Shown here: one piece after another, positions 39,042 to 49,102 of the stretch
Layout of the letters: every line of letters starts with the position of its first letter
How positions within the stretch are numbered: position 1 is the first letter of the stretch
Assembly (NCBI GenBank): GCA_024641305.1
Contig: JAHEDI010000006.1
Coordinates: forward strand, 24,149-88,148
Reading direction: 5' to 3'
Length of the DNA stretch: 64,000 nucleotides
Source: a bacterium
Lineage (GTDB): Bacteria; Actinomycetota; Acidimicrobiia; Spongiisociales; JAENVV01
The notes under the pieces: model-generated
Told to the model about the DNA's origin: nothing
Databases searched by the model: none
The model's input: only the letters and a program-made list of their open reading frames with translations
Program-made: the position numbers and the translations under genes

Positions 39042-39368
39042 GTGCCACATATCGATATCACCGACACCTCACTAGGCATTGGACGGGTTCCAATCCTGTC
39101 CGACATCGCGCTGGCCTTAACCACTGGAAACGTCGCCTGGCCGAGCAGCCCGAACGTAGCGCCCGACGTCGCGGCCGAGATTTCGCAGGGCCAAAGTGAT
39201 CGACAGATCCTGGACGGCCCGGCGAATAGCGTTGGAGATAAGGTCATCATCGATCCATCGACATCAGGCCTCGGCTTGGCGTTGTGGGCGGCCCCCGGAC
39301 CGGCCACATTGATCGGTGGCTGGGCAACGCGGCCCCTTCGACGAGACCATGGGGCAGATTCGCCATGA
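39042..39368 (+). CDS. Hypothetical small protein
   Basis: 108 aa ORF whose TGA overlaps the ATG of the next gene (ATGA at 39365..39368). No recognisable domain. Confidence 0.3.
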   Translation: MPHIDITDTSLGIGRVPILSDIALALTTGNVAWPSSPNVAPDVAAEISQGQSDRQILDGPANSVGDKVIIDPSTSGLGLALWAAPGPATLIGGWATRPLRRDHGADSP

Positions 39369-40111
39369 ATCCGGAAGACCTGCTCTTTCAGGTTCAACGA
39401 GATCTCGCTGAGGTCCAGGAACAACGCGCGAGCGGCGAACTCGACGAGGTCACCGCCAGTCGCCTCACCGACACCTACCAAGCAGAGATCGCCCGAGCAC
39501 AAGGTGCTGACGATCAGGTAGACCCGGCCTCAACCTTGTCGCTTTCTCGGGGCCGGTTGATGGTAGGAGCGGTCATACTCGCCGTTACCTTCGCCGGAAT
39601 CACGTGGGCTGCCAGTGGTGCTTTGGTCGGGCGGGAACCCGACGCTTTTTCTGAACCCGATCGTCAGGTCGATCTTGCCACCTTCAGTAACGAGCAAATG
39701 ATCGAAGTGATCAACGCTAACCCTGACATACCCGAGGTCAACCGTATGCGCCTGGCGCTGGCAGAGCGATATTTCGAAGCGAGCGAGTACTCAAATGCGT
39801 TGACGTGGTACCAGGTTGTGCTCGATTCCAGACCCGCTCCGGCCGACGAATCTGAAGCTCTTGCTCGGATCGGCTGGATGATCCTCGAGTCGGGCCAGCC
39901 CGACCACGCGCTGCGATTCGAGAACCTGGCCCTGGAAGCCAACCCCGCCAACCTGGAGGCCAACTTCTTCCGGGGCCTGGTGTATGCCCGGCTTGGCCGG
40001 ACCGAGGAGGCACTGGCTGACCTACGATTGGTCTCCGACAGCCCGGACGTGCCTGACGACGTCCGCTCCGTGGTCGCGAACGCCATCGCCGCCCTTGAGG
40101 ACGGCTCATGA
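39365..40111 (+). CDS. TPR-repeat membrane protein
   Basis: Trimmed to MNPEDLLFQ. One TM segment (LMVGAVILAVTFAGITWAA), then TPR-like repeats. Confidence 0.55.
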   Translation: MNPEDLLFQVQRDLAEVQEQRASGELDEVTASRLTDTYQAEIARAQGADDQVDPASTLSLSRGRLMVGAVILAVTFAGITWAASGALVGREPDAFSEPDRQVDLATFSNEQMIEVINANPDIPEVNRMRLALAERYFEASEYSNALTWYQVVLDSRPAPADESEALARIGWMILESGQPDHALRFENLALEANPANLEANFFRGLVYARLGRTEEALADLRLVSDSPDVPDDVRSVVANAIAALEDGS

Positions 40112-40290: not shown

Positions 40291-41697
40291 CTAACGACAG
40301 CCGGCTATCTCGGGAGCGTCGAGTCCAGCCAGTCCGTCGCCCTTCCCCTTCAAGTATCGATCAAAGAAAGAGACGAGCTGCGATTCAACCAGCTCACTAC
40401 TCCGAATAGGGTCGAGGGAACCGCCGATCCCGAGATACTTTGACAGTGGCGACAGCCGCGGGAGGAGGGTGAAATCTCGGTGAGCGGTTCCCATGATGCA
40501 TCCGAAGGACACAACGTCGGCTGAGGCCTCCCGCAGCGTGGCGAGAGGGATCTCGTTCGGCTCACTGAGCCAGGCTTCTGAACGAAGGATCGCCATCGGT
40601 ACGTGAACACCGTCGGCCAGAATCGCCTCATCAACCGGCTCGACCCAGGGATCGAGGCCGTACACCGCCGAGCACCGATCGTCGGTAGCGCAGAACTCGA
40701 TCGCCGCCCCCCCGCCGGTTGAATGGCCGAAAACCCCGATGCGACTCAGATCGAGGCGGCCCGCCATCGGGCCGTGGGCATTGAGGTCCTCGACAGCTAT
40801 CAGGGCCTGGCCGATGTCCAATCGAAAGATGTCAACGAGTGTCTCAGAGGCGGCCGCGTATGCCGCGTCGCCGACCGTTTCCTGGTCGGGAAGGGCGACC
40901 GGATCAAGGGCCGCAAAAGTCGCCCCGTCATCGATGGTGGTTCCCAGAGCGCCGTACGTGTGGTCGATGGCCACGACAACATACCCGGCGGCGGCCAACG
41001 CCTCAGCTTGCGGGAAGGCCACCGTCCGGAAACCGGCCCACCCGTGCGAATACACAACAACCGGATACGGTTCAGATGCGACGGCAACCGGCGCATCGAA
41101 CACGCTGCCCATGGTGGCGTTGCGTAAATGGTTGAGCGCAAACGAAGGCAGTCCGAGGTAGGCGGCGGTGGCTGGAGCAAAGTCGTCGAACGAATCGACA
41201 AAAGGAGCCAGAGGCCCATCACTCGGTTCGGATGGATACCAAATCTGGAGGGTGATCTGGCGGAAGCCACCCGGATTCGGTCCATAGAGCTCCACCCGGT
41301 CAGGACTCACCGATCGCACGGTCATGGTACCGATCGGCGTCGTTGGAGCAGCCAACTGAACCACCGGAAGAGCCAGTGTTGGAATAACCAGCACTCCGAT
41401 CCCCAGAACCCCTGAGAGGCCCTTGCCCAGTTGAGTGACCCGCCGCCGAGGTGCTTCCGGAGATTCCGGGGTGGGCGACACGATCTCCCAGGCGGTCGCC
41501 ACTGAGAGAATCACGACGAGGAGGTAGATGGGATAGAGCTGCCATCGGATGTCTTCAACGCGAACATGCATGAACAACGCCCCGGCGGCGGCCAGAATCG
41601 GTATCCATCCAAAGGGCCGACGCGGCAAGCCGGTAACGGACGGCCACAGGACGAATCCGGCCAACGATCCAACAATTACCAATTCCCACATGCTCAT
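40291..41697 (-). CDS. Membrane-anchored alpha/beta hydrolase (PAF-acetylhydrolase/dienelactone-hydrolase-like)
   Basis: 468 aa. N-terminal TM segments, then VVVYSHGWAGF and GHSTGG nucleophile elbow. Confidence 0.6.
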   Translation of the reverse strand: MSMWELVIVGSLAGFVLWPSVTGLPRRPFGWIPILAAAGALFMHVRVEDIRWQLYPIYLLVVILSVATAWEIVSPTPESPEAPRRRVTQLGKGLSGVLGIGVLVIPTLALPVVQLAAPTTPIGTMTVRSVSPDRVELYGPNPGGFRQITLQIWYPSEPSDGPLAPFVDSFDDFAPATAAYLGLPSFALNHLRNATMGSVFDAPVAVASEPYPVVVYSHGWAGFRTVAFPQAEALAAAGYVVVAIDHTYGALGTTIDDGATFAALDPVALPDQETVGDAAYAAASETLVDIFRLDIGQALIAVEDLNAHGPMAGRLDLSRIGVFGHSTGGGAAIEFCATDDRCSAVYGLDPWVEPVDEAILADGVHVPMAILRSEAWLSEPNEIPLATLREASADVVSFGCIMGTAHRDFTLLPRLSPLSKYLGIGGSLDPIRSSELVESQLVSFFDRYLKGKGDGLAGLDAPEIAGCR

Positions 41698-41706
41698 GCG
41701 GCGAAT

Positions 41707-42444
41707 CTACACAGCTTTGAGATCGAAACCGTACGGCAATTCGAGGCGATGGACCGCCATCATGTCCGGATCGCCGAGCAGTTCCCTGGTTCCGCCATCG
41801 GCTACCAACTTTCCAGCGTCGATAATGACAGCTCGTTCACACAACTCAAGGGCGTAGGGCAGATCATGGGTAACCATGAGCATGGTCACGTCAAGGCCCT
41901 TGAGAATCGTGGCCAGCTCTCTCCGGGAGGCGGGGTCAAGGTTGGAGGAAGGCTCGTCAAGCACCAGAATTTCGGGTTTCGAAGCAAGAACGGTCGCCAC
42001 CGCCACCCGGCGGCGCTCGCCAAGCGAAAGGTGGTGTGGAGCGCGGTCGATGGCGTGCACCATCTCGACCGCGCCGAGTGCGTCCAGGACACGCTGGTCG
42101 AGTTCGTCACCCGAAACGCCGAAATTGGCTGGACCGAACGCGACGTCCTGACGGACGGTTGGCATGAACAATTGATCATCGGGATCCTGAAATACCATTC
42201 CGACTCGGCGCCGAATGTCCATCACCGAAGTGTCGTCGAGCGGCGTTCCCCCGACCACCACTCGTCCGGGTGGAGGCATGTGGATGCCATTCAGATGGAG
42301 GACGAGCGTGGTCTTACCCGCCCCGTTCGGGCCGAACATCGCCACTCGCTCTCCTGCCCCGATCTGGAGATTCACCCCATCGAGCGCCTTGAGACCACCC
42401 GGATAAGAGAACGTGAGATCGGTAACTGAGATCGAGGTGCTCAT
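41707..42444 (-). CDS. nikO: ECF-transporter ATPase (CbiO/NikO-type)
   Basis: 245 aa. Walker A GPNGAGKTT, signature LSLGERRRV, Walker B ILVLDEP. Confidence 0.85.
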   Translation of the reverse strand: MSTSISVTDLTFSYPGGLKALDGVNLQIGAGERVAMFGPNGAGKTTLVLHLNGIHMPPPGRVVVGGTPLDDTSVMDIRRRVGMVFQDPDDQLFMPTVRQDVAFGPANFGVSGDELDQRVLDALGAVEMVHAIDRAPHHLSLGERRRVAVATVLASKPEILVLDEPSSNLDPASRRELATILKGLDVTMLMVTHDLPYALELCERAVIIDAGKLVADGGTRELLGDPDMMAVHRLELPYGFDLKAV

Positions 42445-43208
42445 CCGGAGACCACCAGGGCAACCGCCGCCGTAATGACCGCCAATCCGGGCAATGCCAA
42501 TGCCCGCACCACATCGGCGGTCGACGTCAGGACGTCGCCAAACGTCGGCATGGAGCCCGCGTAACCGCGTGCCACCATCGCCATGTAGACCCGCTCCCCC
42601 CGCTCGTAGGAGCGAATGAACAGCGCCCCGGCAGAGGTGGCGAGTGCCTTCACCTGCCAGAAGGCCTTGGGTTCGTAGCCGCGGGCGGCCATCGCCACAC
42701 GCATACGCGCCATCTCGCCACTTATCACCTCGAGATAACGGACCATGAAACCCGCAATCGCCACGATGGCTTTCGGGGCACGCAGGCGGTTCAGGCCGGC
42801 CAGAATGTTTGGAATCTCCGTTGTGGCTGCCAGCAGAATCGAACCCACGACGCCGCAGGAGCCTTTCGCCAGGATCGTCCAGGCGGCGAGAACCCCGGCC
42901 TCGGACAATCTGACTCCGCCGAATTCGAGAAATGGGCCTTCCCCGACCAACGGGAGCAGCAGTGCAAATGCCAGAAATGGCACCTCAACGAGCATTCGCC
43001 GGGCAATAAACCGGACCGGTACCCCGGCCAGTCCGGCCACCAGACCGAGCACCGATGCGTAGAGGCCAAAAGCCCAGACGGCTCGCGCGGGCGTTGCTAC
43101 CACCGCAACGACGAACAAGAACAGGGCAGCCACCTTCAGATGGCCGGGCAATCGATGCACGACCGAGTGCCCATGAATATGGAGAGCATGCGCGTGGCCG
43201 CCACTCAT
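42441..43208 (-). CDS. nikQ: ECF-transporter transmembrane T component (CbiQ/NikQ)
   Basis: 255 aa, CbiQ-family hydrophobic profile. Overlaps its neighbours by 4 nt. Confidence 0.8.
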   Translation of the reverse strand: MSGGHAHALHIHGHSVVHRLPGHLKVAALFLFVVAVVATPARAVWAFGLYASVLGLVAGLAGVPVRFIARRMLVEVPFLAFALLLPLVGEGPFLEFGGVRLSEAGVLAAWTILAKGSCGVVGSILLAATTEIPNILAGLNRLRAPKAIVAIAGFMVRYLEVISGEMARMRVAMAARGYEPKAFWQVKALATSAGALFIRSYERGERVYMAMVARGYAGSMPTFGDVLTSTADVVRALALPGLAVITAAVALVVSG

Positions 43209-44161
43209 ACCGGTGACCTGCGTCGCAATATAGTAAAGGTAAGCCAGCCCAGAAGAAACGTCACGACCATACCCACCGCAGCAGCCACAATCCGGCCAGC
43301 TCCATCAGAAAGACCGGCTGCCCCGTAGTTCGACAGCGGGGAGGTGGCGATCAAGCTTCCCTGAGCTTCTTGTGCAAGCCCGGTCTGCTCGGCTACCCAC
43401 TGCAACCCGTCGGGGTTCGAGGAGGCGAAGACGGTAAGTGACACCAGCATCGCTGCGGCGACGCCGGCGAGAATCCAAAATCGTTTCATGGGCAGCCGGG
43501 GACTACCTTCGGCGCGCAGGTCGCTCGCTCCAAATACCAGATCAGGTCGGGCCTGAAGGACCGCCCCGACGACCGCCACTGTGATGAAGCCCTCGCCGAT
43601 GCCGATCAGGAGATGGGAGCCAGCCATGAGCAACAAGACGTTGAAAAGGTTGACTCCACCGACCCCACCGATGGCGTATTCGACGACAAACATAACTGCG
43701 GACACCACCACGGACAGGGTCGCCGCCACAAATGAAGCACCGAGAACTGCCCGCCTGGACGGCCGGAATGGAGCCCGGACCAATCGGAACATGAACCAAC
43801 CACTCAGCGTCGTAACCACGGCCATGTTGATCAGGTTTAGGCCGAGTGCCGAGACCCCGCCATCGGCGAACAACATAGCCTGGAGGATGATCACAACTGA
43901 GACGACCACCACTGCCACTGATGGACCCATCAAAATGGCCGCAAGCGCACCGCCGAGTAAATGGCCGCTCATGCCTGGTAGCACCGGGAAGTTGAGCATT
44001 TGCAGCACAAATACGAAGGCCGCCACCAGTCCTGCCAGAGGGATCTGACGGTCCTTGAGACGAGCTGCTGATTGGCGGAGGGCTCCACCGACGCCGCCGG
44101 CGGCAATTACTCCTGCCCCAAGCGACGTGGTGCCGTCAATAAAGCCATCGGGAATGTGCAT
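43205..44161 (-). CDS. nikM: Ni/Co ECF-transporter substrate-capture component NikM/CbiM fused with an N-like C-terminal region
   Basis: Start set at ATG 44161 so the product begins MHIPDGF, the CbiM/NikM N-terminal metal-binding signature. The track's TTG 44179 adds only MQEAIP. Confidence 0.8.
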   Translation of the reverse strand: MHIPDGFIDGTTSLGAGVIAAGGVGGALRQSAARLKDRQIPLAGLVAAFVFVLQMLNFPVLPGMSGHLLGGALAAILMGPSVAVVVVSVVIILQAMLFADGGVSALGLNLINMAVVTTLSGWFMFRLVRAPFRPSRRAVLGASFVAATLSVVVSAVMFVVEYAIGGVGGVNLFNVLLLMAGSHLLIGIGEGFITVAVVGAVLQARPDLVFGASDLRAEGSPRLPMKRFWILAGVAAAMLVSLTVFASSNPDGLQWVAEQTGLAQEAQGSLIATSPLSNYGAAGLSDGAGRIVAAAVGMVVTFLLGWLTFTILRRRSPV

Positions 44162-44173
44162 AGGGATCGCCTC

Positions 44174-44190
44174 TTGCAAGCTGCTTGCAA
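44174..44190. promoter_or_regulatory. Nur-box-like operator TTGCAA-GCTGC-TTGCAA upstream of nikM
   Basis: Perfect 17-bp palindrome read from the sequence. Matches the Streptomyces Nur consensus tTGCAA-N5-tTGCAA. A Fur-family regulator is encoded 700 bp upstream. Confidence 0.6.
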
Positions 44191-44227
44191 TAACTATACG
44201 GCGATTCCGAGCCGACCGTGAATCAGG

Positions 44228-44848
44228 TTATCCGGCCGTCTCGAGAAGGGAGTCGAGTTCCGCCCGAAGAACCTCTTCGCCGGCTGCACCAGCCCACGAG
44301 GTCTTCACGATTCCATCGTGGGTGATGAGCACGGAAACCGGTTGATAGGGAATCCCATAGGCAGAAAAAACCTTCTCATCGGTGTCTAACCCCCACAACA
44401 CGTTGCCGGACGGAAGCAGTTGGGATGCCCGTTCGGTCGTGTCTTGCAGGGATCCCTTCCACGCCACCGCCAGGAACGTCACCTGGTCTGCATAGTCAGC
44501 CGAAACTTTGTCGATAACGGGTAACTCCCGCTGGCAGGAACTTCACCACTCGGCCCAGAACACCATGTAAACCGGCCGCGACCCTTCCGACAAGGTGAAG
44601 GTCGACCCGTCTGCGAGTACCAGTGAAAAATCGGGGGCAACCGGACCCTCTACCCCGGACGGAGCCCGATCCAACGGCGAGACGGCCGGATCCGCAGTGA
44701 CGACTGAAGTTGTTTCAGTAATGGGCCGGGCAAGTTCGGTCGTGGTCGGTGGATCTCCGGCACCTTGGATCGAAGTGGCCGTGCTCCCGGCCCCGCAGGC
44801 GCTGAGCACGAGGCCAAGGGCGACGAGAACTTTGGCGGAACGGTTCAT
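44228..44848 (-). CDS. Candidate selenoprotein, TlpA/ResA-like thioredoxin-fold lipoprotein with U-x-x-C active site (in-frame TGA at 44545..44543)
   Basis: Track ORFs 44543..44848 and 44228..44482 are in the same frame, separated by one TGA. The joined product is ...VYMVFWAEW-U-SSCQRELPVIDKVSADYADQVTFLAVAWKG..., which aligns to WASWCxPC of TlpA/ResA. Lipoprotein signal MNRSAKVLVALGLVLSAC. A hairpin follows the TGA. Confidence 0.6.
44516..44532 (-). promoter_or_regulatory. SECIS-like hairpin downstream of the in-frame UGA of the TlpA-like gene
   Basis: On the mRNA this is AGCGGG-AGUUA-CCCGUU. 6-bp stem including one G-U pair, 5-nt loop with G21 U22 relative to U1 of UGA. E. coli fdhF has G23 U24. 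Confidence 0.35.
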
Positions 44849-44880
44849 ACGAGCAAGTTTGCAACAGATCGGAATCTAAC

Positions 44881-45327
44881 TCAACCTAAGTTCCCCGAAT
44901 GTTCACAATCCCGACAATATCCGCCCAGGGCAAAGTGTGATGGGTTGACGGTGAATCCGTAGGAAGCGTGCAATTCCTCGAAGAAGCCGCCCAGTGCTCC
45001 GGCGGGCACGTCGATAGTGGAGCCACAGTTATCGCAAGTCAAGTGGTGATGAGATTCTGACTCACTCAGATGGATCACCCCGGGGCCGTGCCCGAGATGG
45101 ACATGATGGACAACCCCCAGCTGTTCGAAGACCTCGAGCGTCCGATACACTGTCGAGGGGTTGATGGCCTGCTTGGCGATTTTCTGGGCCGCATCGTGCA
45201 CGCCCGCCGAGGTCAGATGTTCGTCGTGCCCATCGGCAATCACCTGGCAAATCGCCCGACGAGCGGCGGTTAGCCGGAGGCCTTTTGCCCGCAAAACGGC
45301 AATCAGGTCATCGGCGGCGACCTGCAT
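44881..45327 (-). CDS. Fur-family metalloregulator (Nur/Zur-like)
   Basis: 148 aa. Winged-helix N-terminus, HHHLTCDNCG and CRDC metal sites. Lies upstream of a Nur-box-controlled nik operon. Confidence 0.8.
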   Translation of the reverse strand: MQVAADDLIAVLRAKGLRLTAARRAICQVIADGHDEHLTSAGVHDAAQKIAKQAINPSTVYRTLEVFEQLGVVHHVHLGHGPGVIHLSESESHHHLTCDNCGSTIDVPAGALGGFFEELHASYGFTVNPSHFALGGYCRDCEHSGNLG

Positions 45328-46346
45328 TACCGATCCATCTCCTGGCTAAGCGTGATAACTCGTTGGAGCACCTTTTCGGCCGCCCCCGAATCAATCGAGG
45401 CTTCGGCGAGCGGAATCCCATCGGCAATCGACGGGGCTTTACCGGCCGCCGCGATCCCGGCCGCCGCATTGAGGACCGCAATGTCTCGCCGGGGTCCGGC
45501 CTCGCCGGCCAGCACGCTTCTCAGGATCATGACGTTCTCGCCCGCGTCACCACCCACAAGGTCCTCCAGCTTCGCCCGCTTGAGTCCATGATCGGCCGGC
45601 TCGAAAGACGACTTCCTGATGACACCGCCAGTGAACTCAAACAACGTCGAAGGACCGATCGTCGACAGCTCGTCGAGGCCATCGTCCCCATGGAACGCAA
45701 AAGCCCTAACCGCACCAAGGTTGGCCAGGACACCGATCATCTTTTCGGCCATTTGTGGGTCAGCCACGCCGAGTGCCAGGTGTTGAGCCGTGGCAGGGTT
45801 GGTCATCGGGCCAAGGAAGTTGAACACCGTCGGAATCCCGAGTTCCGATCGCACCGGGCCGGCGTGCCGCATGGCCGGGTGGTAGTTCCGGGCGAAGAAG
45901 AAACCGAATCCTTCTTGTTCGATGAGTTGCACCGTCCTGGCCGGCTCCAGGTCTATGACCATACCAAGGGCTTCGAGAACATCCGCTGATCCGCACTTCG
46001 AAGAAGCCGACCGATTGCCGTGTTTGGCCACGGTGCAGCCCGCTCCTGCCGCAATAAACGAGGCCGTGGTTGAAATGTTGAACGTCCCGAATCCATCGCC
46101 ACCGGTGCCAACGATGTCGAGCACCGGGCGATCGATCGCCACGCGAATCGATGCCTCGCGCATCGCCTCGACCAAACCCGTCAGCTCGTCGGTCGTTTCG
46201 CCCTTTATCCGAATGGCGACGATGAACGCCGCAATCTGAGCGGGGGTCGCCCGACCCGACATAATCTCGGTCATCGCTCGATGCGCCTGATCTCTCGTCA
46301 GGTCAGTGCCCTCTGAAAGCGGTTTGAGCGTGCTTGACCACTGCAT
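45327..46346 (-). CDS. trpD: Anthranilate phosphoribosyltransferase
   Basis: Trimmed to MQWSSTLKPL. GTGGDG and NISTTASF TrpD motifs. Stop overlaps the fur-family start. Confidence 0.85.
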   Translation of the reverse strand: MQWSSTLKPLSEGTDLTRDQAHRAMTEIMSGRATPAQIAAFIVAIRIKGETTDELTGLVEAMREASIRVAIDRPVLDIVGTGGDGFGTFNISTTASFIAAGAGCTVAKHGNRSASSKCGSADVLEALGMVIDLEPARTVQLIEQEGFGFFFARNYHPAMRHAGPVRSELGIPTVFNFLGPMTNPATAQHLALGVADPQMAEKMIGVLANLGAVRAFAFHGDDGLDELSTIGPSTLFEFTGGVIRKSSFEPADHGLKRAKLEDLVGGDAGENVMILRSVLAGEAGPRRDIAVLNAAAGIAAAGKAPSIADGIPLAEASIDSGAAEKVLQRVITLSQEMDR

Positions 46347-46418
46347 AATATGAAGCTCCGGGCTACTGGTGTGTTGCGCGCATCGTAGTCGCCGCACCGC
46401 CATTCGATCACAGTTTCG

Positions 46419-46949
46419 GTGTTCACCGGCGGTGGCACTACCATAGGACGGCAAGATCTCACGAATTGCAGAAAGGAACTCGCCGCGGTGTCTGATACGA
46501 CCCTGTACTTCTCATATACGGCGCTCATGTCGCCATATCGTCTCAGGGACGTAGCACCTGGAGCCGAGTTCCAGTTCATCGCCCACCTCCCTGAAACCAA
46601 GCTCATCTTCCCGTTCGAGCTCGAAGTTGGGGCGGGCGCTCTGCCATCGGTTCGTCCCGAACCAGGGAACACGGTCTGGGGGGCGATGTTCGCCGTCAGC
46701 GATCAGGACCTCGAAGCGATCAGCGCAGCGGAACTCGAAGAGCTGCGCTCCATAACCTACGACTTCAAAGCGGTCGATCGCGAAGGCAAGCGCCACAGCG
46801 TTGTTACCCATATCCATGCGGATACCTCAGATCGGGTGGCGCATCCGTCCAAGAAGTACATGGGCCAGATCGTTCTGGGTGCCCGGCATTGGAAGCTGCC
46901 AACCGGCTGGATTGCCGGACTCGAAGAGCACATGGACAACCCTGCGTAG
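46419..46949 (+). CDS. Gamma-glutamyl cyclotransferase-like (AIG2/GGCT family) protein
   Basis: YFSYTALMS..VWGAMFAV pattern. True start possibly GTG 46488. Confidence 0.5.
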   Translation: MFTGGGTTIGRQDLTNCRKELAAVSDTTLYFSYTALMSPYRLRDVAPGAEFQFIAHLPETKLIFPFELEVGAGALPSVRPEPGNTVWGAMFAVSDQDLEAISAAELEELRSITYDFKAVDREGKRHSVVTHIHADTSDRVAHPSKKYMGQIVLGARHWKLPTGWIAGLEEHMDNPA

Positions 46950-46989
46950 TTGCCAGACCCGACCGCCCAGGCGGTCAACGATCCACCTT

Positions 46990-48072
46990 CTACCCCACAA
47001 CCGTGGGTTCGGCGTAAAACCGTTTCCTCGCCCACAGCGCGACATATACGAGGCCGACCAAGACCGGTACCTCGATCAGTGGACCAACCACACCGGCCAG
47101 CGCTTCACCTGAAGTAACACCAAAAACACCGATGGCTACCGCGATCGCTAGTTCAAAGTTGTTGCTCGCCGCTGTGAAGGCAACGCTGACGTTCTTCTCG
47201 TACGACAGATGCAACCGCAGTCCGAGTGCGAACGCCACGGTCCACATCAATCCGAAATAGGCGAGAAGCGGAAGGGCGATGCGCGCCACATCGAGGGGTT
47301 GGGCGGTGATGGTCTCGCCCTGGAGAGCGAAGAGGATCACGACGGTAAAGAGGAGCCCGTAGAGCGCCCAGGGGGCGAGCTTGGGAATGAATTCTCCCTC
47401 GTACCACTCAACACCGCGACTGCGTTCCCCCCAACGGCGTGTGCAATAGCCACCCGCCAGCGGAATCCCCAGGAACACGAGGACGATCTTGGCAATTTCC
47501 CACATCGACACATTCAACGCGGCACCCTCAAGCCCCAGCCAGTTCGGTAAGAGCTCGAGGTAGAAGTAGCCCAATACCGAGTACGCCACGATTTGAAAGA
47601 CCGAGTTGAGGGCGACAAGCACCGCGGCGGCCTCCCGATCCCCGCATGCCAGATCGTTCCAAATAAGCACCATTGCTATACACCGGGCAAGCCCGATAAT
47701 GATGAGCCCCGTCCGATACTGCGGTAGATCGGGCAGCATCAGCCATGCCAGCGAAAACATCAGGGCCGGACCAACCACCCAGTTGAGTATCAACGAAGTG
47801 CCCATCAGTTTCCTGTCGGTGGCGATCTCACCGATCTGCGAGTAACGGACCTTCGCCAGCACCGGATACATCATGACGAGCAGTCCTACCGCAATCGGCA
47901 ACGAAACCGATCCGATTTTGACAGTGTCGAGCCAGTCGTTGAGATCAGGAAAGACCCTGCCCAGACCAAGTCCGAGGATCATCGCCACGATGATCCAGAC
48001 CGGTAGGAAACGATCGACGACTGACAATCGGGCGAGTGCCGGTTCGGTCACGGTCGGTTGGCTACCGGTCAC
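46990..48072 (-). CDS. ACR3-family arsenite efflux transporter
   Basis: 360 aa, 10 TM segments. ACR3 conserved regions (MYPVLAKV, GLARCIAMVLIWN). Confidence 0.8.
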   Translation of the reverse strand: MTGSQPTVTEPALARLSVVDRFLPVWIIVAMILGLGLGRVFPDLNDWLDTVKIGSVSLPIAVGLLVMMYPVLAKVRYSQIGEIATDRKLMGTSLILNWVVGPALMFSLAWLMLPDLPQYRTGLIIIGLARCIAMVLIWNDLACGDREAAAVLVALNSVFQIVAYSVLGYFYLELLPNWLGLEGAALNVSMWEIAKIVLVFLGIPLAGGYCTRRWGERSRGVEWYEGEFIPKLAPWALYGLLFTVVILFALQGETITAQPLDVARIALPLLAYFGLMWTVAFALGLRLHLSYEKNVSVAFTAASNNFELAIAVAIGVFGVTSGEALAGVVGPLIEVPVLVGLVYVALWARKRFYAEPTVVG

Positions 48073-48705: not shown

Positions 48706-48711
48706 ACAAGT

Positions 48712-49102
48712 TTGAGTTCGCCTATAAGCCGGATTCTGTGTCCTGTTTTCTTTCGAGCGAAGCTCGATCGAAACAGGCAGCGACCATCTATCTGGGATTG
48801 CCGTTACCGGTCAACCTCGTGCGGCCTACCCGAGACGTTCACCTCAAACGAGGATCGACGGGCCGTCATAGTCTCTGCATGGCCTTGCTCCGGGCGGGGT
48901 TTACCAGCCGTGCCGGTCACCCGACACGCTGGTGGTCTCTTACACCACCGTTTCACCCTTACCGTGCCTTGCGGCGTTGGCGGTTTTCTTTCTGTTGCAC
49001 TTTCCATCGGCTCGCGCCGCCTGGGGGTTGCCCAGCGCCCTTGCCCTGTGGAGTCCGGACTTTCCTCCAGGATTACTCCCGGCGGTCGCCCGGCGAACTC
49101 AC
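48712..49102 (-). ncRNA. rnpB: RNase P RNA (bacterial type A)
   Basis: The reverse complement carries GGAGGAAAGUCCGGACUCC (P4), ACAGGGCA, AGUGCAACAGAAA, GGUAAGGGUGAAA, GGUAAACCCC and ACAGAAUCCGGCUUAU. P1 forms between GAGUUCGCC (49100..49092) and GGCGAACUC (48722..48714). Confidence 0.85.

What the first reader, a model, noticed from the sequence alone, without database searches (positions are those of the whole stretch)
44161..44227. Textbook Nur box (TTGCAA-N5-TTGCAA) immediately upstream of nikM, with a Fur-family regulator nearby
The 17-bp perfect palindrome TTGCAAGCTGCTTGCAA (44174..44190) lies 13-29 nt upstream of the MHIPDGF start of an ECF Nik/Cbi MNQO transporter. This matches the Streptomyces Nur operator consensus. 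A Fur-family gene (44881..45327) lies in the same transcriptional direction. This predicts nickel-responsive repression and identifies the transporter as NikMNQO rather than a cobalt system.
Basis: partly seen in the sequence, partly recalled or inferred. Interest (0 to 1): 0.55.

Follow-up and report, generated by a model that had tools for sequence, protein, structure and literature searches.

The report
Nickel-repressor operator before a nickel transporter
A perfect binding site for the nickel-sensing repressor Nur sits on the promoter of a nickel-uptake transporter operon, with the Nur gene about 0.7 kb upstream; this circuit is already known from Streptomyces and is seen here in an uncultured Acidimicrobiia bacterium, so the finding is real but ordinary.

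Summary
TTGCAAGCTGCTTGCAA (44174..44190) is the only TTGCAA-N5-TTGCAA in the window, and 0 of 100 shuffles contain one. It lies 12 nt before the ATG (44161, minus strand) of an ECF-type S-component gene that starts MHIPDGF.

- **Operator position:** the box begins 2 nt after a predicted -10 hexamer (TTCACG-N18-TATAGT) and ends at the Shine-Dalgarno GAGG, so it covers the expected transcription start.
- **Regulator:** the Fur-family gene (45327..44881) is most similar to S. coelicolor Nur (3EYY, 94 bits; next structure 61). It keeps the Ni-site triad His70/His72/His126, which the Nur structure paper says is conserved only in Nur orthologues.
- **Recurrence:** a genome-collection scan found the exact box 5-35 nt upstream of an MHIPDG start in 41 loci. 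Forty look actinobacterial, and 17 have a Nur-like gene nearby.
- **Not a cobalt system by context:** there is no B12 riboswitch.

Two corrections apply. There is no separate nikN gene, because the N-like two-helix PDGLE domain is fused to NikM. Nickel rather than cobalt specificity rests on context, not on sequence.

This is a new member of a known kind and of low interest. As a side observation, the gene between nur and nikM is a probable UxxC selenoprotein.

The parts
44174..44190 (.). Nur box: a perfect 6-5-6 palindrome (TTGCAA-GCWGC-TTGCAA) and the predicted operator
   Evidence: Exact and unique in the window, with 0/100 shuffles matching. Invariant apart from one spacer base in 7 related loci. 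The same box precedes nikM in 41 genome loci. It matches the published consensus (PMC2691836).
44217..44222 (-). Predicted -35 hexamer TTCACG of the nikM promoter
   Evidence: Promoter scan. Conserved as TTCACG or TTAACG in 7 loci while the spacer diverges.
44193..44198 (-). Predicted -10 hexamer TATAGT, 2 nt upstream of the box
   Evidence: Promoter scan. Conserved as TATAGT or TATAAT in 7 loci. In other lineages a TATAAT overlaps the first T of the box.
44170..44173 (-). Shine-Dalgarno GAGG, directly after the box and 8 nt before the ATG
   Evidence: Read from the sequence. Invariant in 7 loci.
43205..44161 (-). nik(MN): ECF S component (CbiM domain, residues 2-208) fused to an N-like PDGLE domain with two TM helices (residues 228-314)
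   Evidence: PF01891 at 5.6e-56 and PF13190 at 6.7e-15. Met1-His2 and His67 are present, and these are the metal ligands in NikM2 (PMC3945884). Hydrophobic segments at 227-249 and 286-313 flank the PDGLQ motif.
42441..43208 (-). nikQ/cbiQ: ECF T component; overlaps the nikM stop by 4 nt
   Evidence: PF02361 at 8.3e-35. TIGR02454 at 140.7 bits, above its cut-off of 111.8.
41707..42444 (-). nikO/cbiO: ECF ATPase; overlaps the nikQ stop by 4 nt
   Evidence: PF00005 at 2.5e-30. Best NCBIfam matches are ECF/cobalt-type ATPases, all below their cut-offs.
44881..45327 (-). nur: Fur-family regulator of the Nur subfamily (148 aa)
   Evidence: PF01475. Best solved relative is 3EYY (S. coelicolor Nur) at 8.8e-26 and 94 bits, against 61 bits for the next. 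H33, H70, H72, H81, H88, H90, H126, Y56, R57 and the four Cys are conserved; H86 is Glu and D37 is Ala.
44228..44848 (-). Context gene between nur and the box: TlpA/Redoxin-like lipoprotein with an in-frame TGA (44543..44545) at the first Cys of CxxC. It is a probable selenoprotein and is not shown to belong to the nickel circuit.
   Evidence: A single frame. The TGA is conserved in 9 related loci. The Redoxin domain spans the TGA when it is read through. The hairpin meets the bSECIS criteria (PMC13188914).
40291..41697 (-). Context gene: membrane-anchored alpha/beta hydrolase that starts 9 nt after the nikO stop and may be the last gene of the operon
   Evidence: PF03403 at 1.9e-20. Found downstream of nikO in 8 related loci.

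Best explanation
The palindrome is the operator of a Nur-type nickel repressor, and it sits on the promoter of a nik(MN)QO nickel-uptake operon. When nickel is plentiful, the Nur orthologue encoded about 0.7 kb upstream loads Ni at its Ni-site (His70/72/126 equivalents) and at its M-site. It then binds as a dimer to the two TTGCAA half-sites. Because the box starts 2 nt after the -10 hexamer and runs to the Shine-Dalgarno sequence, bound Nur blocks RNA polymerase at the transcription start and shuts off transporter synthesis. When nickel is scarce, Nur leaves the DNA and the operon is transcribed.

Shown here:
- the exact box;
- its position relative to a conserved promoter-like site and the start codon;
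- conservation of the Nur-specific residues;
- recurrence of the arrangement in 41 genome loci.

Inferred:
- actual binding by this protein;
- nickel dependence;
- the position of the transcription start;
- nickel as the transported metal.
For: - **Exact, unique box:** 0/100 shuffles contain one.
- **Promoter geometry:** TTCACG-N18-TATAGT ends 2 nt before the box. The -35, -10, box and SD are conserved in 7 loci whose NikM is 85-99% identical, while the promoter spacer drifts.
- **Regulator:** closest to Nur 3EYY at 94 bits, with the next structure at 61. The Ni-site triad, three of the four M-site histidines, and Y56/R57 are conserved in the window protein and in 14 actinobacterial neighbours of boxed nikM genes. 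The Nur paper states the triad is conserved only in Nur orthologues and that H86A barely affects DNA binding.
- **Published precedent:** the consensus tTGCaa-N5-ttGCAA, and Ni-dependent Nur binding to the S. coelicolor nikM promoter.
- **Genome scan:** 41 loci carry the exact box 5-35 nt before an MHIPDG start, and 40 of them look actinobacterial. Seventeen have a Nur-like gene within the 8 kb fetched, usually directly upstream.
- **Specificity:** in 291 kb of those loci only one exact box lies elsewhere, and it is inside a coding region.
- **No riboswitch:** no cobalamin riboswitch or other Rfam match in 41000..47000 at E <= 1.
Against: - No experiment exists for this organism.
- The transcription start is only predicted.
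- His86 of the M-site is Glu and the DNA-backbone contact Asp37 is Ala. The corresponding alanine mutants of S. coelicolor Nur keep most DNA binding.
- Sequence does not separate NikM from CbiM: 67 versus 63 bits. The NCBIfam names say 'cobalt', though all those matches are below cut-off.
- No second Nur target and no nickel enzyme was found in the 64 kb.
- In the Nanopelagicales-type loci no Nur gene lies within the fetched 8 kb.
- The genome scan returned no Streptomyces locus. It demanded a perfect box and a perfect MHIPDG start within 35 nt, so it samples only part of the family.
Confidence: 0.85

Rival explanations
1. The regulatory circuit is the same, but the transporter is a cobalt or dual Ni/Co importer (CbiMNQO-like), and the Fur-family protein responds to cobalt or to several metals.
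For: NCBIfam best matches are named cobalt transporter CbiM/CbiQ/CbiO. The S component scores almost equally against NikM2 (67 bits) and R. capsulatus CbiM (63 bits). The NikM2 planar N4 site also accommodates Co2+ (PMC3945884). The Nur M-site is not metal-specific.
Against: The CbiM NCBIfam matches are all far below their curated cut-offs. There is no cobalamin riboswitch, the usual mark of Cbi systems (PMC2667541). The operator and regulator are of the type shown to be nickel-responsive. The fused N-like domain is PDGLE, with only sub-threshold similarity to CbiN models.
Confidence: 0.1
2. The palindrome is bound by some other transcription factor, and the adjacent Fur-family protein controls different genes.
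For: In about 23 of the 41 loci, mostly Nanopelagicales-type, no Nur-like gene lies within the fetched 8 kb. The Thermoflexus locus has the box, but its only nearby Fur paralogue lacks the Ni-site.
Against: The site is an exact match to an experimentally footprinted operator type. Where a regulator gene is adjacent to the box, it is always a Nur-type protein with conserved recognition-helix residues Y56/R57. S. coelicolor nur is also not adjacent to its targets (PMC4531530), so a distant nur is not evidence against Nur control.
Confidence: 0.04
3. The palindrome is a chance sequence, or it acts as an RNA/DNA hairpin (for example a terminator for the upstream trpD-nur-redoxin genes) and not as a protein operator.
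For: It is a perfect 17-nt palindrome located between two co-directional genes. Some related loci have palindromes extended by 4-7 bp.
Against: 0/100 shuffles contain the motif. It is conserved in 41 loci at a fixed position before nikM. No terminator-like site is found and no T-run follows. The RNA fold of the region is not better than shuffles (z = -1.5), and the minimum-energy structure does not use the full palindrome. Flank complementarity across sites is no higher than column composition predicts, and the window's site has no extension.
Confidence: 0.01

Closest known systems
Streptomyces coelicolor Nur and its Nur box at the nikM (nikMNOQ), nikA, sodF and sodF2 promoters (Ahn et al. 2006; An et al. 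2009, PMC2691836)
   Same: The operator architecture is the same 6-5-6 TTGCAA-N5-TTGCAA. The regulator subfamily is the same: Ni-site His70/72/126, M-site His33/88/90, and Tyr56/Arg57. The target type is the same, the S-component gene of an ECF nickel transporter. The logic is the same: a Ni-loaded repressor sits on a box that overlaps the promoter.
   Different: The host is an uncultured Acidimicrobiia lineage, and the regulator is about 40% identical to S. coelicolor Nur over the alignment. Here nur lies directly upstream of its target, whereas in S. coelicolor it is co-located with ygfZ (PMC4531530). His86 is Glu and Asp37 is Ala. The box is a perfect palindrome, not a degenerate consensus match. 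N is fused to M. No sodF/sodN arm of the regulon can be seen in the window.
NikR-controlled nikMNQO / nikABCDE operons (proteobacteria, archaea and others)
   Same: A nickel-bound repressor shuts off a nickel importer, and the regulator gene is often adjacent to the transporter operon (PMC2667541; PMC7055735).
   Different: The regulator fold is unrelated (ribbon-helix-helix NikR versus winged-helix Fur family), and so is the operator.
B12-riboswitch-controlled CbiMNQO cobalt transporters
   Same: The ECF M/Q/O core is homologous, with identical metal-ligand residues (Met1, His2, His67).
   Different: No cobalamin riboswitch is present here. The small partner is a PDGLE-type domain, not a CbiN (COG1930) protein. 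Control is by a protein operator.
Fur and Zur boxes (n-1-n inverted repeats)
   Same: They are bound by dimeric Fur-family repressors at promoters of metal-uptake genes.
   Different: Their half-sites are separated by 1 bp, not 5 bp. The 5-bp spacing is the feature that the Nur structure paper links to the Ni-site-fixed S1-S2 sheet.

Membership tests
Nur subfamily of Fur-family regulators | Fur-family domain (winged-helix DNA-binding domain plus dimerisation domain) | tested here: met
   PF01475 at E = 1.2e-21, covering residues 15-128.
Nur subfamily of Fur-family regulators | Closer to Nur than to Fur, Zur or PerR | tested here: met
   Against all PDB sequences, 3EYY (S. coelicolor Nur) scores 94.2 bits (E = 8.8e-26). 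The next hits are a Fur at 61.4 bits, M. tuberculosis FurB/Zur at 56.5, S. coelicolor Zur at 47.3 and B. subtilis PerR at 46.2. No NCBIfam Fur, Zur, PerR or Irr equivalog reaches its cut-off. No formal tree was built.
Nur subfamily of Fur-family regulators | Ni-site histidine triad His70/His72/His126, stated to be conserved only in Nur orthologues | tested here: met
   All three are His in the window protein and in 14 actinobacterial neighbours of boxed nikM genes. A Thermoflexus Fur paralogue has R/E/K at these positions. The criterion comes from PMC2691836.
Nur subfamily of Fur-family regulators | M-site His33/His86/His88/His90 | tested here: met
   His33, His88 and His90 are conserved. His86 is Glu here and varies among relatives. 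H86A did not significantly affect DNA binding in S. coelicolor Nur, whereas H33A, H88A and H90A did.
Nur subfamily of Fur-family regulators | DNA-contact residues Tyr56 and Arg57 in the recognition helix | tested here: met
   The STVYRTLE helix is identical to Nur. Asp37, a backbone contact whose D37A mutant binds slightly less well, is Ala here.
Nur subfamily of Fur-family regulators | Nickel-dependent binding to the Nur box | not testable with these tools
   Needs EMSA or footprinting with purified protein, with and without Ni(II).
Nur box (operator) | 6-5-6 inverted repeat tTGCaa-N5-ttGCAA | tested here: met
   TTGCAAGCTGCTTGCAA matches 12 of 12 specified positions. The consensus is from PMC2691836.
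Nur box (operator) | Located on the promoter of a nickel-homeostasis or SOD gene | tested here: met
   The box starts 2 nt after a predicted -10 hexamer and lies 12 nt before the nikM ATG. The promoter elements are conserved in 7 loci. The promoter itself is predicted, not mapped.
ECF-type nickel transporter NikMNQO | S component with N-terminal Met1-His2 and His67 metal ligands | tested here: met
   MHIPDGF at the N-terminus and His at position 67. Ligand roles are from PMC3945884.
ECF-type nickel transporter NikMNQO | Small two-TM 'N' partner (or K+L) | tested here: met
   The C-terminal 100 residues of the M protein form a PDGLE domain (PF13190, E = 6.7e-15) with two hydrophobic helices. 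The homologous segment is a separate gene after nikM in the Nanopelagicales-type loci. Whether PDGLE corresponds to one of the published NikN subtypes could not be checked.
ECF-type nickel transporter NikMNQO | T component (Q) and ATPase (O) in the same operon | tested here: met
   CbiQ TIGR02454 is above its cut-off and an ABC ATPase is present. The genes overlap by 4 nt each.
ECF-type nickel transporter NikMNQO | Nickel rather than cobalt as substrate | tested here: inconclusive
   Sequence similarity does not discriminate. Context favours Ni: a Nur box, an adjacent nur and no B12 riboswitch. Transport assays are needed.
Bacterial UxxC Redoxin/TlpA-like selenoproteins (side observation) | In-frame UGA at the redox Cys, conserved among homologues, followed by a bSECIS hairpin (3-9 nt loop with G in its first two positions, stem of at least 4 bp, 16-37 nt from UGA, energy <= -7.5 kcal/mol) | tested here: met
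   The TGA is conserved in 10 of 10 sequences. The stem is 6-7 bp, the loop is AGUUR, the spacing is 16 nt, and the energy is -7.8 to -12.3 kcal/mol. Criteria are from PMC13188914. The Sec machinery (selABCD) could not be looked for, and there is no tRNA in the window.

The most novel reading that the evidence does not exclude
The conserved cluster trpD-nur-(UxxC selenocysteine redoxin lipoprotein)-nik(MN)QO-hydrolase may be one functional unit. In that reading the extracytoplasmic selenoprotein takes part in nickel acquisition, for example as a Sec/Cys nickel-binding or chelate-releasing accessory that replaces NikK/L-type components. That would make it a selenium-dependent nickel uptake system in Acidimicrobiia. 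The evidence does not exclude this. The gene is kept between nur and nikM in 9 related loci at 42-69% (N-terminal part) and 50-91% (C-terminal part) identity to the window's protein. However, it lies upstream of the Nur-controlled promoter, and ccmH/ccmI-like genes nearby suggest an ordinary cytochrome-maturation role.
Probability: 0.07. Interest if true: 0.6.

Novelty: new member of a known kind. Interest (0 to 1): 0.22.

Why it matters
The result allows a confident annotation in an uncultured Acidimicrobiia genome: a nickel importer rather than a 'cobalt transporter', and a Nur regulator rather than a generic 'Fur family' protein. It also shows that the Nur-nikM regulatory link described in Streptomyces extends, with an unchanged operator core, to Acidimicrobiia, freshwater Nanopelagicales-type lineages and Cellulomonas. 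That is useful for regulon reconstruction and for reading nickel limitation in environmental metatranscriptomes. It does not reveal a new mechanism.

Tried and rejected
- **Hairpin or cruciform idea.** Several related sites have extended palindromes such as cttgTTGCAA...TTGCAAcaag. Across 41 unique sites, flank complementarity is no higher than column composition predicts, and the window's site has no extension. The RNA fold is unremarkable. Rejected.
- **Cobalamin riboswitch.** None found, and no other Rfam family near the locus.
- **Ni versus Co from solved structures.** NikM2 and CbiM score alike, so this is uninformative.
- **Literature on the PDGLE domain.** No relevant paper in the library, so its equivalence to a NikN subtype stays open.
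- **Second Nur targets.**
  - There are no other boxes in the window, even with 2 mismatches.
  - No NiSOD, urease, [NiFe]-hydrogenase or Fe/Mn-SOD signature motifs appear in six-frame translations.
  - The one extra exact box in the fetched loci (L035:7334) lies inside a coding region.
- **Start codon.** The mechanical ORF list starts the M gene at a TTG inside the box (44179). This was rejected in favour of the ATG at 44161, because Met1-His2 must be the N-terminus.
- **Not attempted.** No structure prediction, because it could not test metal-site chemistry. No formal Fur-family phylogeny.

Full report
**Observation.** The plus strand reads TTGCAAGCTGCTTGCAA at 44174..44190. It is a perfect 17-bp palindrome and the only match to TTGCAA-N5-TTGCAA in the 64-kb window, even with two mismatches allowed. 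No exact match occurred in 100 dinucleotide-preserving shuffles. With two mismatches chance gives about one site per window, so the weight lies in the exactness and the position. All the genes concerned are on the minus strand.

**Gene anatomy (minus strand, 5' to 3').**
- **trpD** ends at 45327, and its stop codon shares one base with the ATG of the Fur-family gene (TAATG).
- **The Fur-family gene** runs 45327..44881.
- **A TlpA/Redoxin-like lipoprotein gene** runs 44848..44228 and is interrupted by an in-frame TGA.
- **A 66-nt intergenic region** follows, and it holds the box.
- **A 318-aa protein** (44161..43205) has a CbiM domain (PF01891, E = 5.6e-56) and a C-terminal PDGLE domain (PF13190, E = 6.7e-15).
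- **cbiQ** (43208..42441) and **cbiO** (42444..41707) each overlap the previous gene by 4 nt.
- **An alpha/beta hydrolase** starts 9 nt further on.

The mechanical ORF list begins the M gene at a TTG inside the box. The true start must be the ATG at 44161, because the alignments to NikM2 and CbiM structures run from residue 1 to residue 1. [quoted passage not shown] The window protein has M1, H2 and H67. There is no separate N gene. The PDGLE segment has two hydrophobic helices (227-249 and 286-313) flanking a PDGLQ motif. That is the topology described for NikN/CbiN (PMC2667541).

**Operator geometry.** The only sigma-70-like site in 43900..45600 is TTCACG-N18-TATAGT at 44222..44193 on the minus strand. 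The box begins two bases after the -10 hexamer and ends directly at a GAGG Shine-Dalgarno sequence, 8 nt before the ATG. A transcription start at the usual distance from the -10 hexamer would fall inside the box (inference). I aligned the region from seven loci whose NikM is 85-99% identical. The -35, -10, box and SD are invariant or nearly so, while the promoter spacer diverges. A repressor bound here would occlude the polymerase. This is how the Nur box overlapping the sodF promoter is described (PMC3919588).

**The regulator.** Against all PDB sequences, the 148-aa protein is closest to 3EYY, S. coelicolor Nur, at 94 bits (E = 8.8e-26). The next Fur-family structures are a Fur at 61 bits, FurB/Zur at 56 and PerR at 46. 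No NCBIfam Fur, Zur, PerR or Irr model reaches its cut-off.

In the alignment the Ni-site residues His70, His72 and His126 are all histidine, as are M-site His33, His88 and His90, and also His81. The recognition-helix residues Tyr56 and Arg57 sit in an identical STVYRTLE motif. His86 is Glu and Asp37 is Ala. The Nur structure paper reports four relevant points:
- The Ni-site triad is essential.
- The triad is 'conserved only in Nur orthologs'.
- H86A does not significantly affect DNA binding.
- D37A only slightly reduces binding.

By that paper's criterion, the protein is a Nur orthologue.

**Comparative evidence.** I scanned one genome per species (185,579 species) for the exact box, followed 5-35 nt later by ATG-CAY-ATH-CCN-GAY-GG. 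This returned 41 loci. By their record titles they are Acidimicrobiia, Nanopelagicales/'Ca. Planktophila', other Actinomycetota, Cellulomonas, three MAGs labelled Bifidobacterium, one untyped 'bacterium' and one Thermoflexus. From the base composition of these loci, the chance of an exact box at one position is about 3e-8. That gives about 1e-6 per gene over 31 offsets, so 41 hits cannot be chance (inference).

All the loci encode homologues of the window's M, Q and O proteins, at 38-99% identity for M. Seventeen have a Nur-like gene within the fetched stretch, usually directly upstream of the box. The 14 that could be read in full all keep the Ni-site triad. The Fur paralogue near the Thermoflexus site does not. 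In 291 kb of these loci only one exact box is not nikM-proximal, and it lies within a coding region. The M and PDGLE parts are fused in the Acidimicrobiia and Cellulomonas loci and are separate genes in the Nanopelagicales-type loci.

The scan required perfection, which probably explains why no Streptomyces locus was returned. It samples the family and does not delimit it.

**Nickel or cobalt.** Sequence alone does not decide. NikM2 scores 67 bits and R. capsulatus CbiM 63. The planar N4 site fits both metals, and automatic names say 'cobalt' at sub-threshold scores. Context favours nickel in three ways:
- The operator and regulator are of the type shown to respond to nickel.
- There is no cobalamin riboswitch, the usual mark of Cbi systems.
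- The small partner is not a CbiN-family protein at threshold.

I give nickel about 0.85 and cobalt or dual specificity about 0.1.

**Rivals.**
- **Chance** is excluded by the shuffles and by conservation.
- **A terminator or RNA hairpin** is not supported. No terminator-like site was found. The fold is no better than shuffles, with z = -1.5. The extended palindromes seen in 8-9 other loci reflect a flank bias (T-W-R ... Y-A-A), not a general excess of complementarity, and they are absent from the window.
- **A different regulator** binding the box cannot be formally excluded, but it has no support where a regulator gene is adjacent.

**Comparison with what is known.** This is the Nur / Nur-box / nikM circuit of S. 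coelicolor (Ahn et al. 2006; An et al. 2009), found in another actinobacterial class. The differences are modest:
- nur lies next to its target, whereas in S. coelicolor it is co-located with ygfZ.
- The box is perfect, not degenerate.
- M and N are fused.
- Two non-critical residues are substituted.

Nur orthologues outside Streptomyces have been noted before, for example in Frankia. I found no paper in the library describing Nur boxes in Acidimicrobiia or Nanopelagicales. That is absence from a limited library, not proof of novelty. The verdict is a new member of a known kind, real and well supported, but of low surprise.

**Side observations.**
- **A probable selenoprotein.** The gene between nur and the box is one reading frame, with a TGA at the first Cys of FWAEW-C-xx-C.
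  - The TGA is conserved in all nine related loci that keep the gene, with conserved protein sequence on both sides.
  - Read through, the protein matches Redoxin, AhpC/TSA and Thioredoxin domains across the TGA.
  - Sixteen nucleotides after the TGA lies a 6-7 bp hairpin with an AGUUR loop, one compensatory pair, and an energy of -7.8 to -12.3 kcal/mol. This meets the published bSECIS criteria.
  - UxxC Redoxin-family and thiol-disulfide-isomerase-like selenoproteins are already listed as predicted families, so this too is a member of a known class.
  - Public gene calls split it into 101-aa and 79-aa fragments.
- **Possible cytochrome-maturation link.** ccmH-like and TPR genes lie just beyond the hydrolase and may point to a cytochrome-maturation role for the redoxin.
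- **RNase P RNA.** The window also holds an RNase P RNA at 48709..49101.

**Limits.** Only 64 kb of the genome was available, so the regulon could not be surveyed. Binding, metal response, the transcription start and the transported metal are all inferred.

Noticed in passing
window 44228..44848 (minus); TGA at 44543..44545: The two 'ORFs' between nur and nikM are one TlpA/Redoxin-like lipoprotein gene with an in-frame TGA at the first Cys of CxxC (FWAEW-U-SSC). The TGA is conserved in 9 related loci, and a hairpin meeting the bSECIS criteria follows 16 nt later. It is a probable UxxC selenoprotein of an already listed family. Public gene calls split it into 101-aa and 79-aa fragments.
   Followed up: yes
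window 45327 (trpD stop / nur start); loci L008, L009, L010, L016, L020, L021, L025, L027, L031: The trpD stop codon overlaps the nur ATG by one base (TAATG), and trpD directly precedes nur in nine related loci. The nickel regulator therefore appears to be co-transcribed with a tryptophan-biosynthesis gene. No reason is apparent.
   Followed up: partly
window 40291..41697 (minus); L009, L016, L021, L022, L026, L028, L031, L038: A 468-aa membrane-anchored alpha/beta hydrolase (PAF-acetylhydrolase-like) starts 9 nt after the nikO stop and keeps this position in eight related loci at 32-72% identity. It may be an unrecognised last gene of the nik operon.
   Followed up: partly
L004, L005, L007, L012, L014, L015, L039, L040 (box flanks): In some lineages the palindrome extends 4-7 bp beyond the 6-5-6 core, with different sequences (ttctta...taagaa, ctcttg...caagag, accttg...caaggt). 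Across all 41 sites the flanks show a T-W-R / Y-A-A bias but no general excess of complementarity. The window's site has no extension, because GAGG (the SD) replaces YAA.
   Followed up: partly
L040:5097..6836: In an Acidimicrobiaceae MAG the ORF starting MHIPDG is 579 aa long and seems to join NikM, the PDGLE domain and CbiQ in one frame. That would be a possible M-N-Q triple fusion, or else an assembly error.
   Followed up: no
L037:3846..3922 (Thermoflexus, Chloroflexota): This is the only locus not from Actinomycetota. It has the exact box plus an adjacent one-mismatch box. Its MHIPDG ORF stops after 67 aa, and the only Fur paralogue nearby lacks the Nur Ni-site (R/E/K). It may be a horizontally acquired or decaying copy.
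   Followed up: no
window about 39284..40111 (+) and the neighbouring ccmH-like gene (L046:6178..7247): A TPR (CcmI-like) gene and a CcmH-like gene lie just beyond the hydrolase on the opposite strand. They may be the functional partners of the TlpA-like selenoprotein in cytochrome c maturation.
   Followed up: no
window 48709..49101 (minus): A bacterial RNase P class A RNA (279 bits). Several mechanical ORFs listed there are therefore spurious.
   Followed up: no
L035:7334..7350: The only exact TTGCAA-N5-TTGCAA in the fetched loci that is not in front of nikM. It lies inside the N-terminal coding region of a SAF-domain-like ORF and is probably not an operator.
   Followed up: partly
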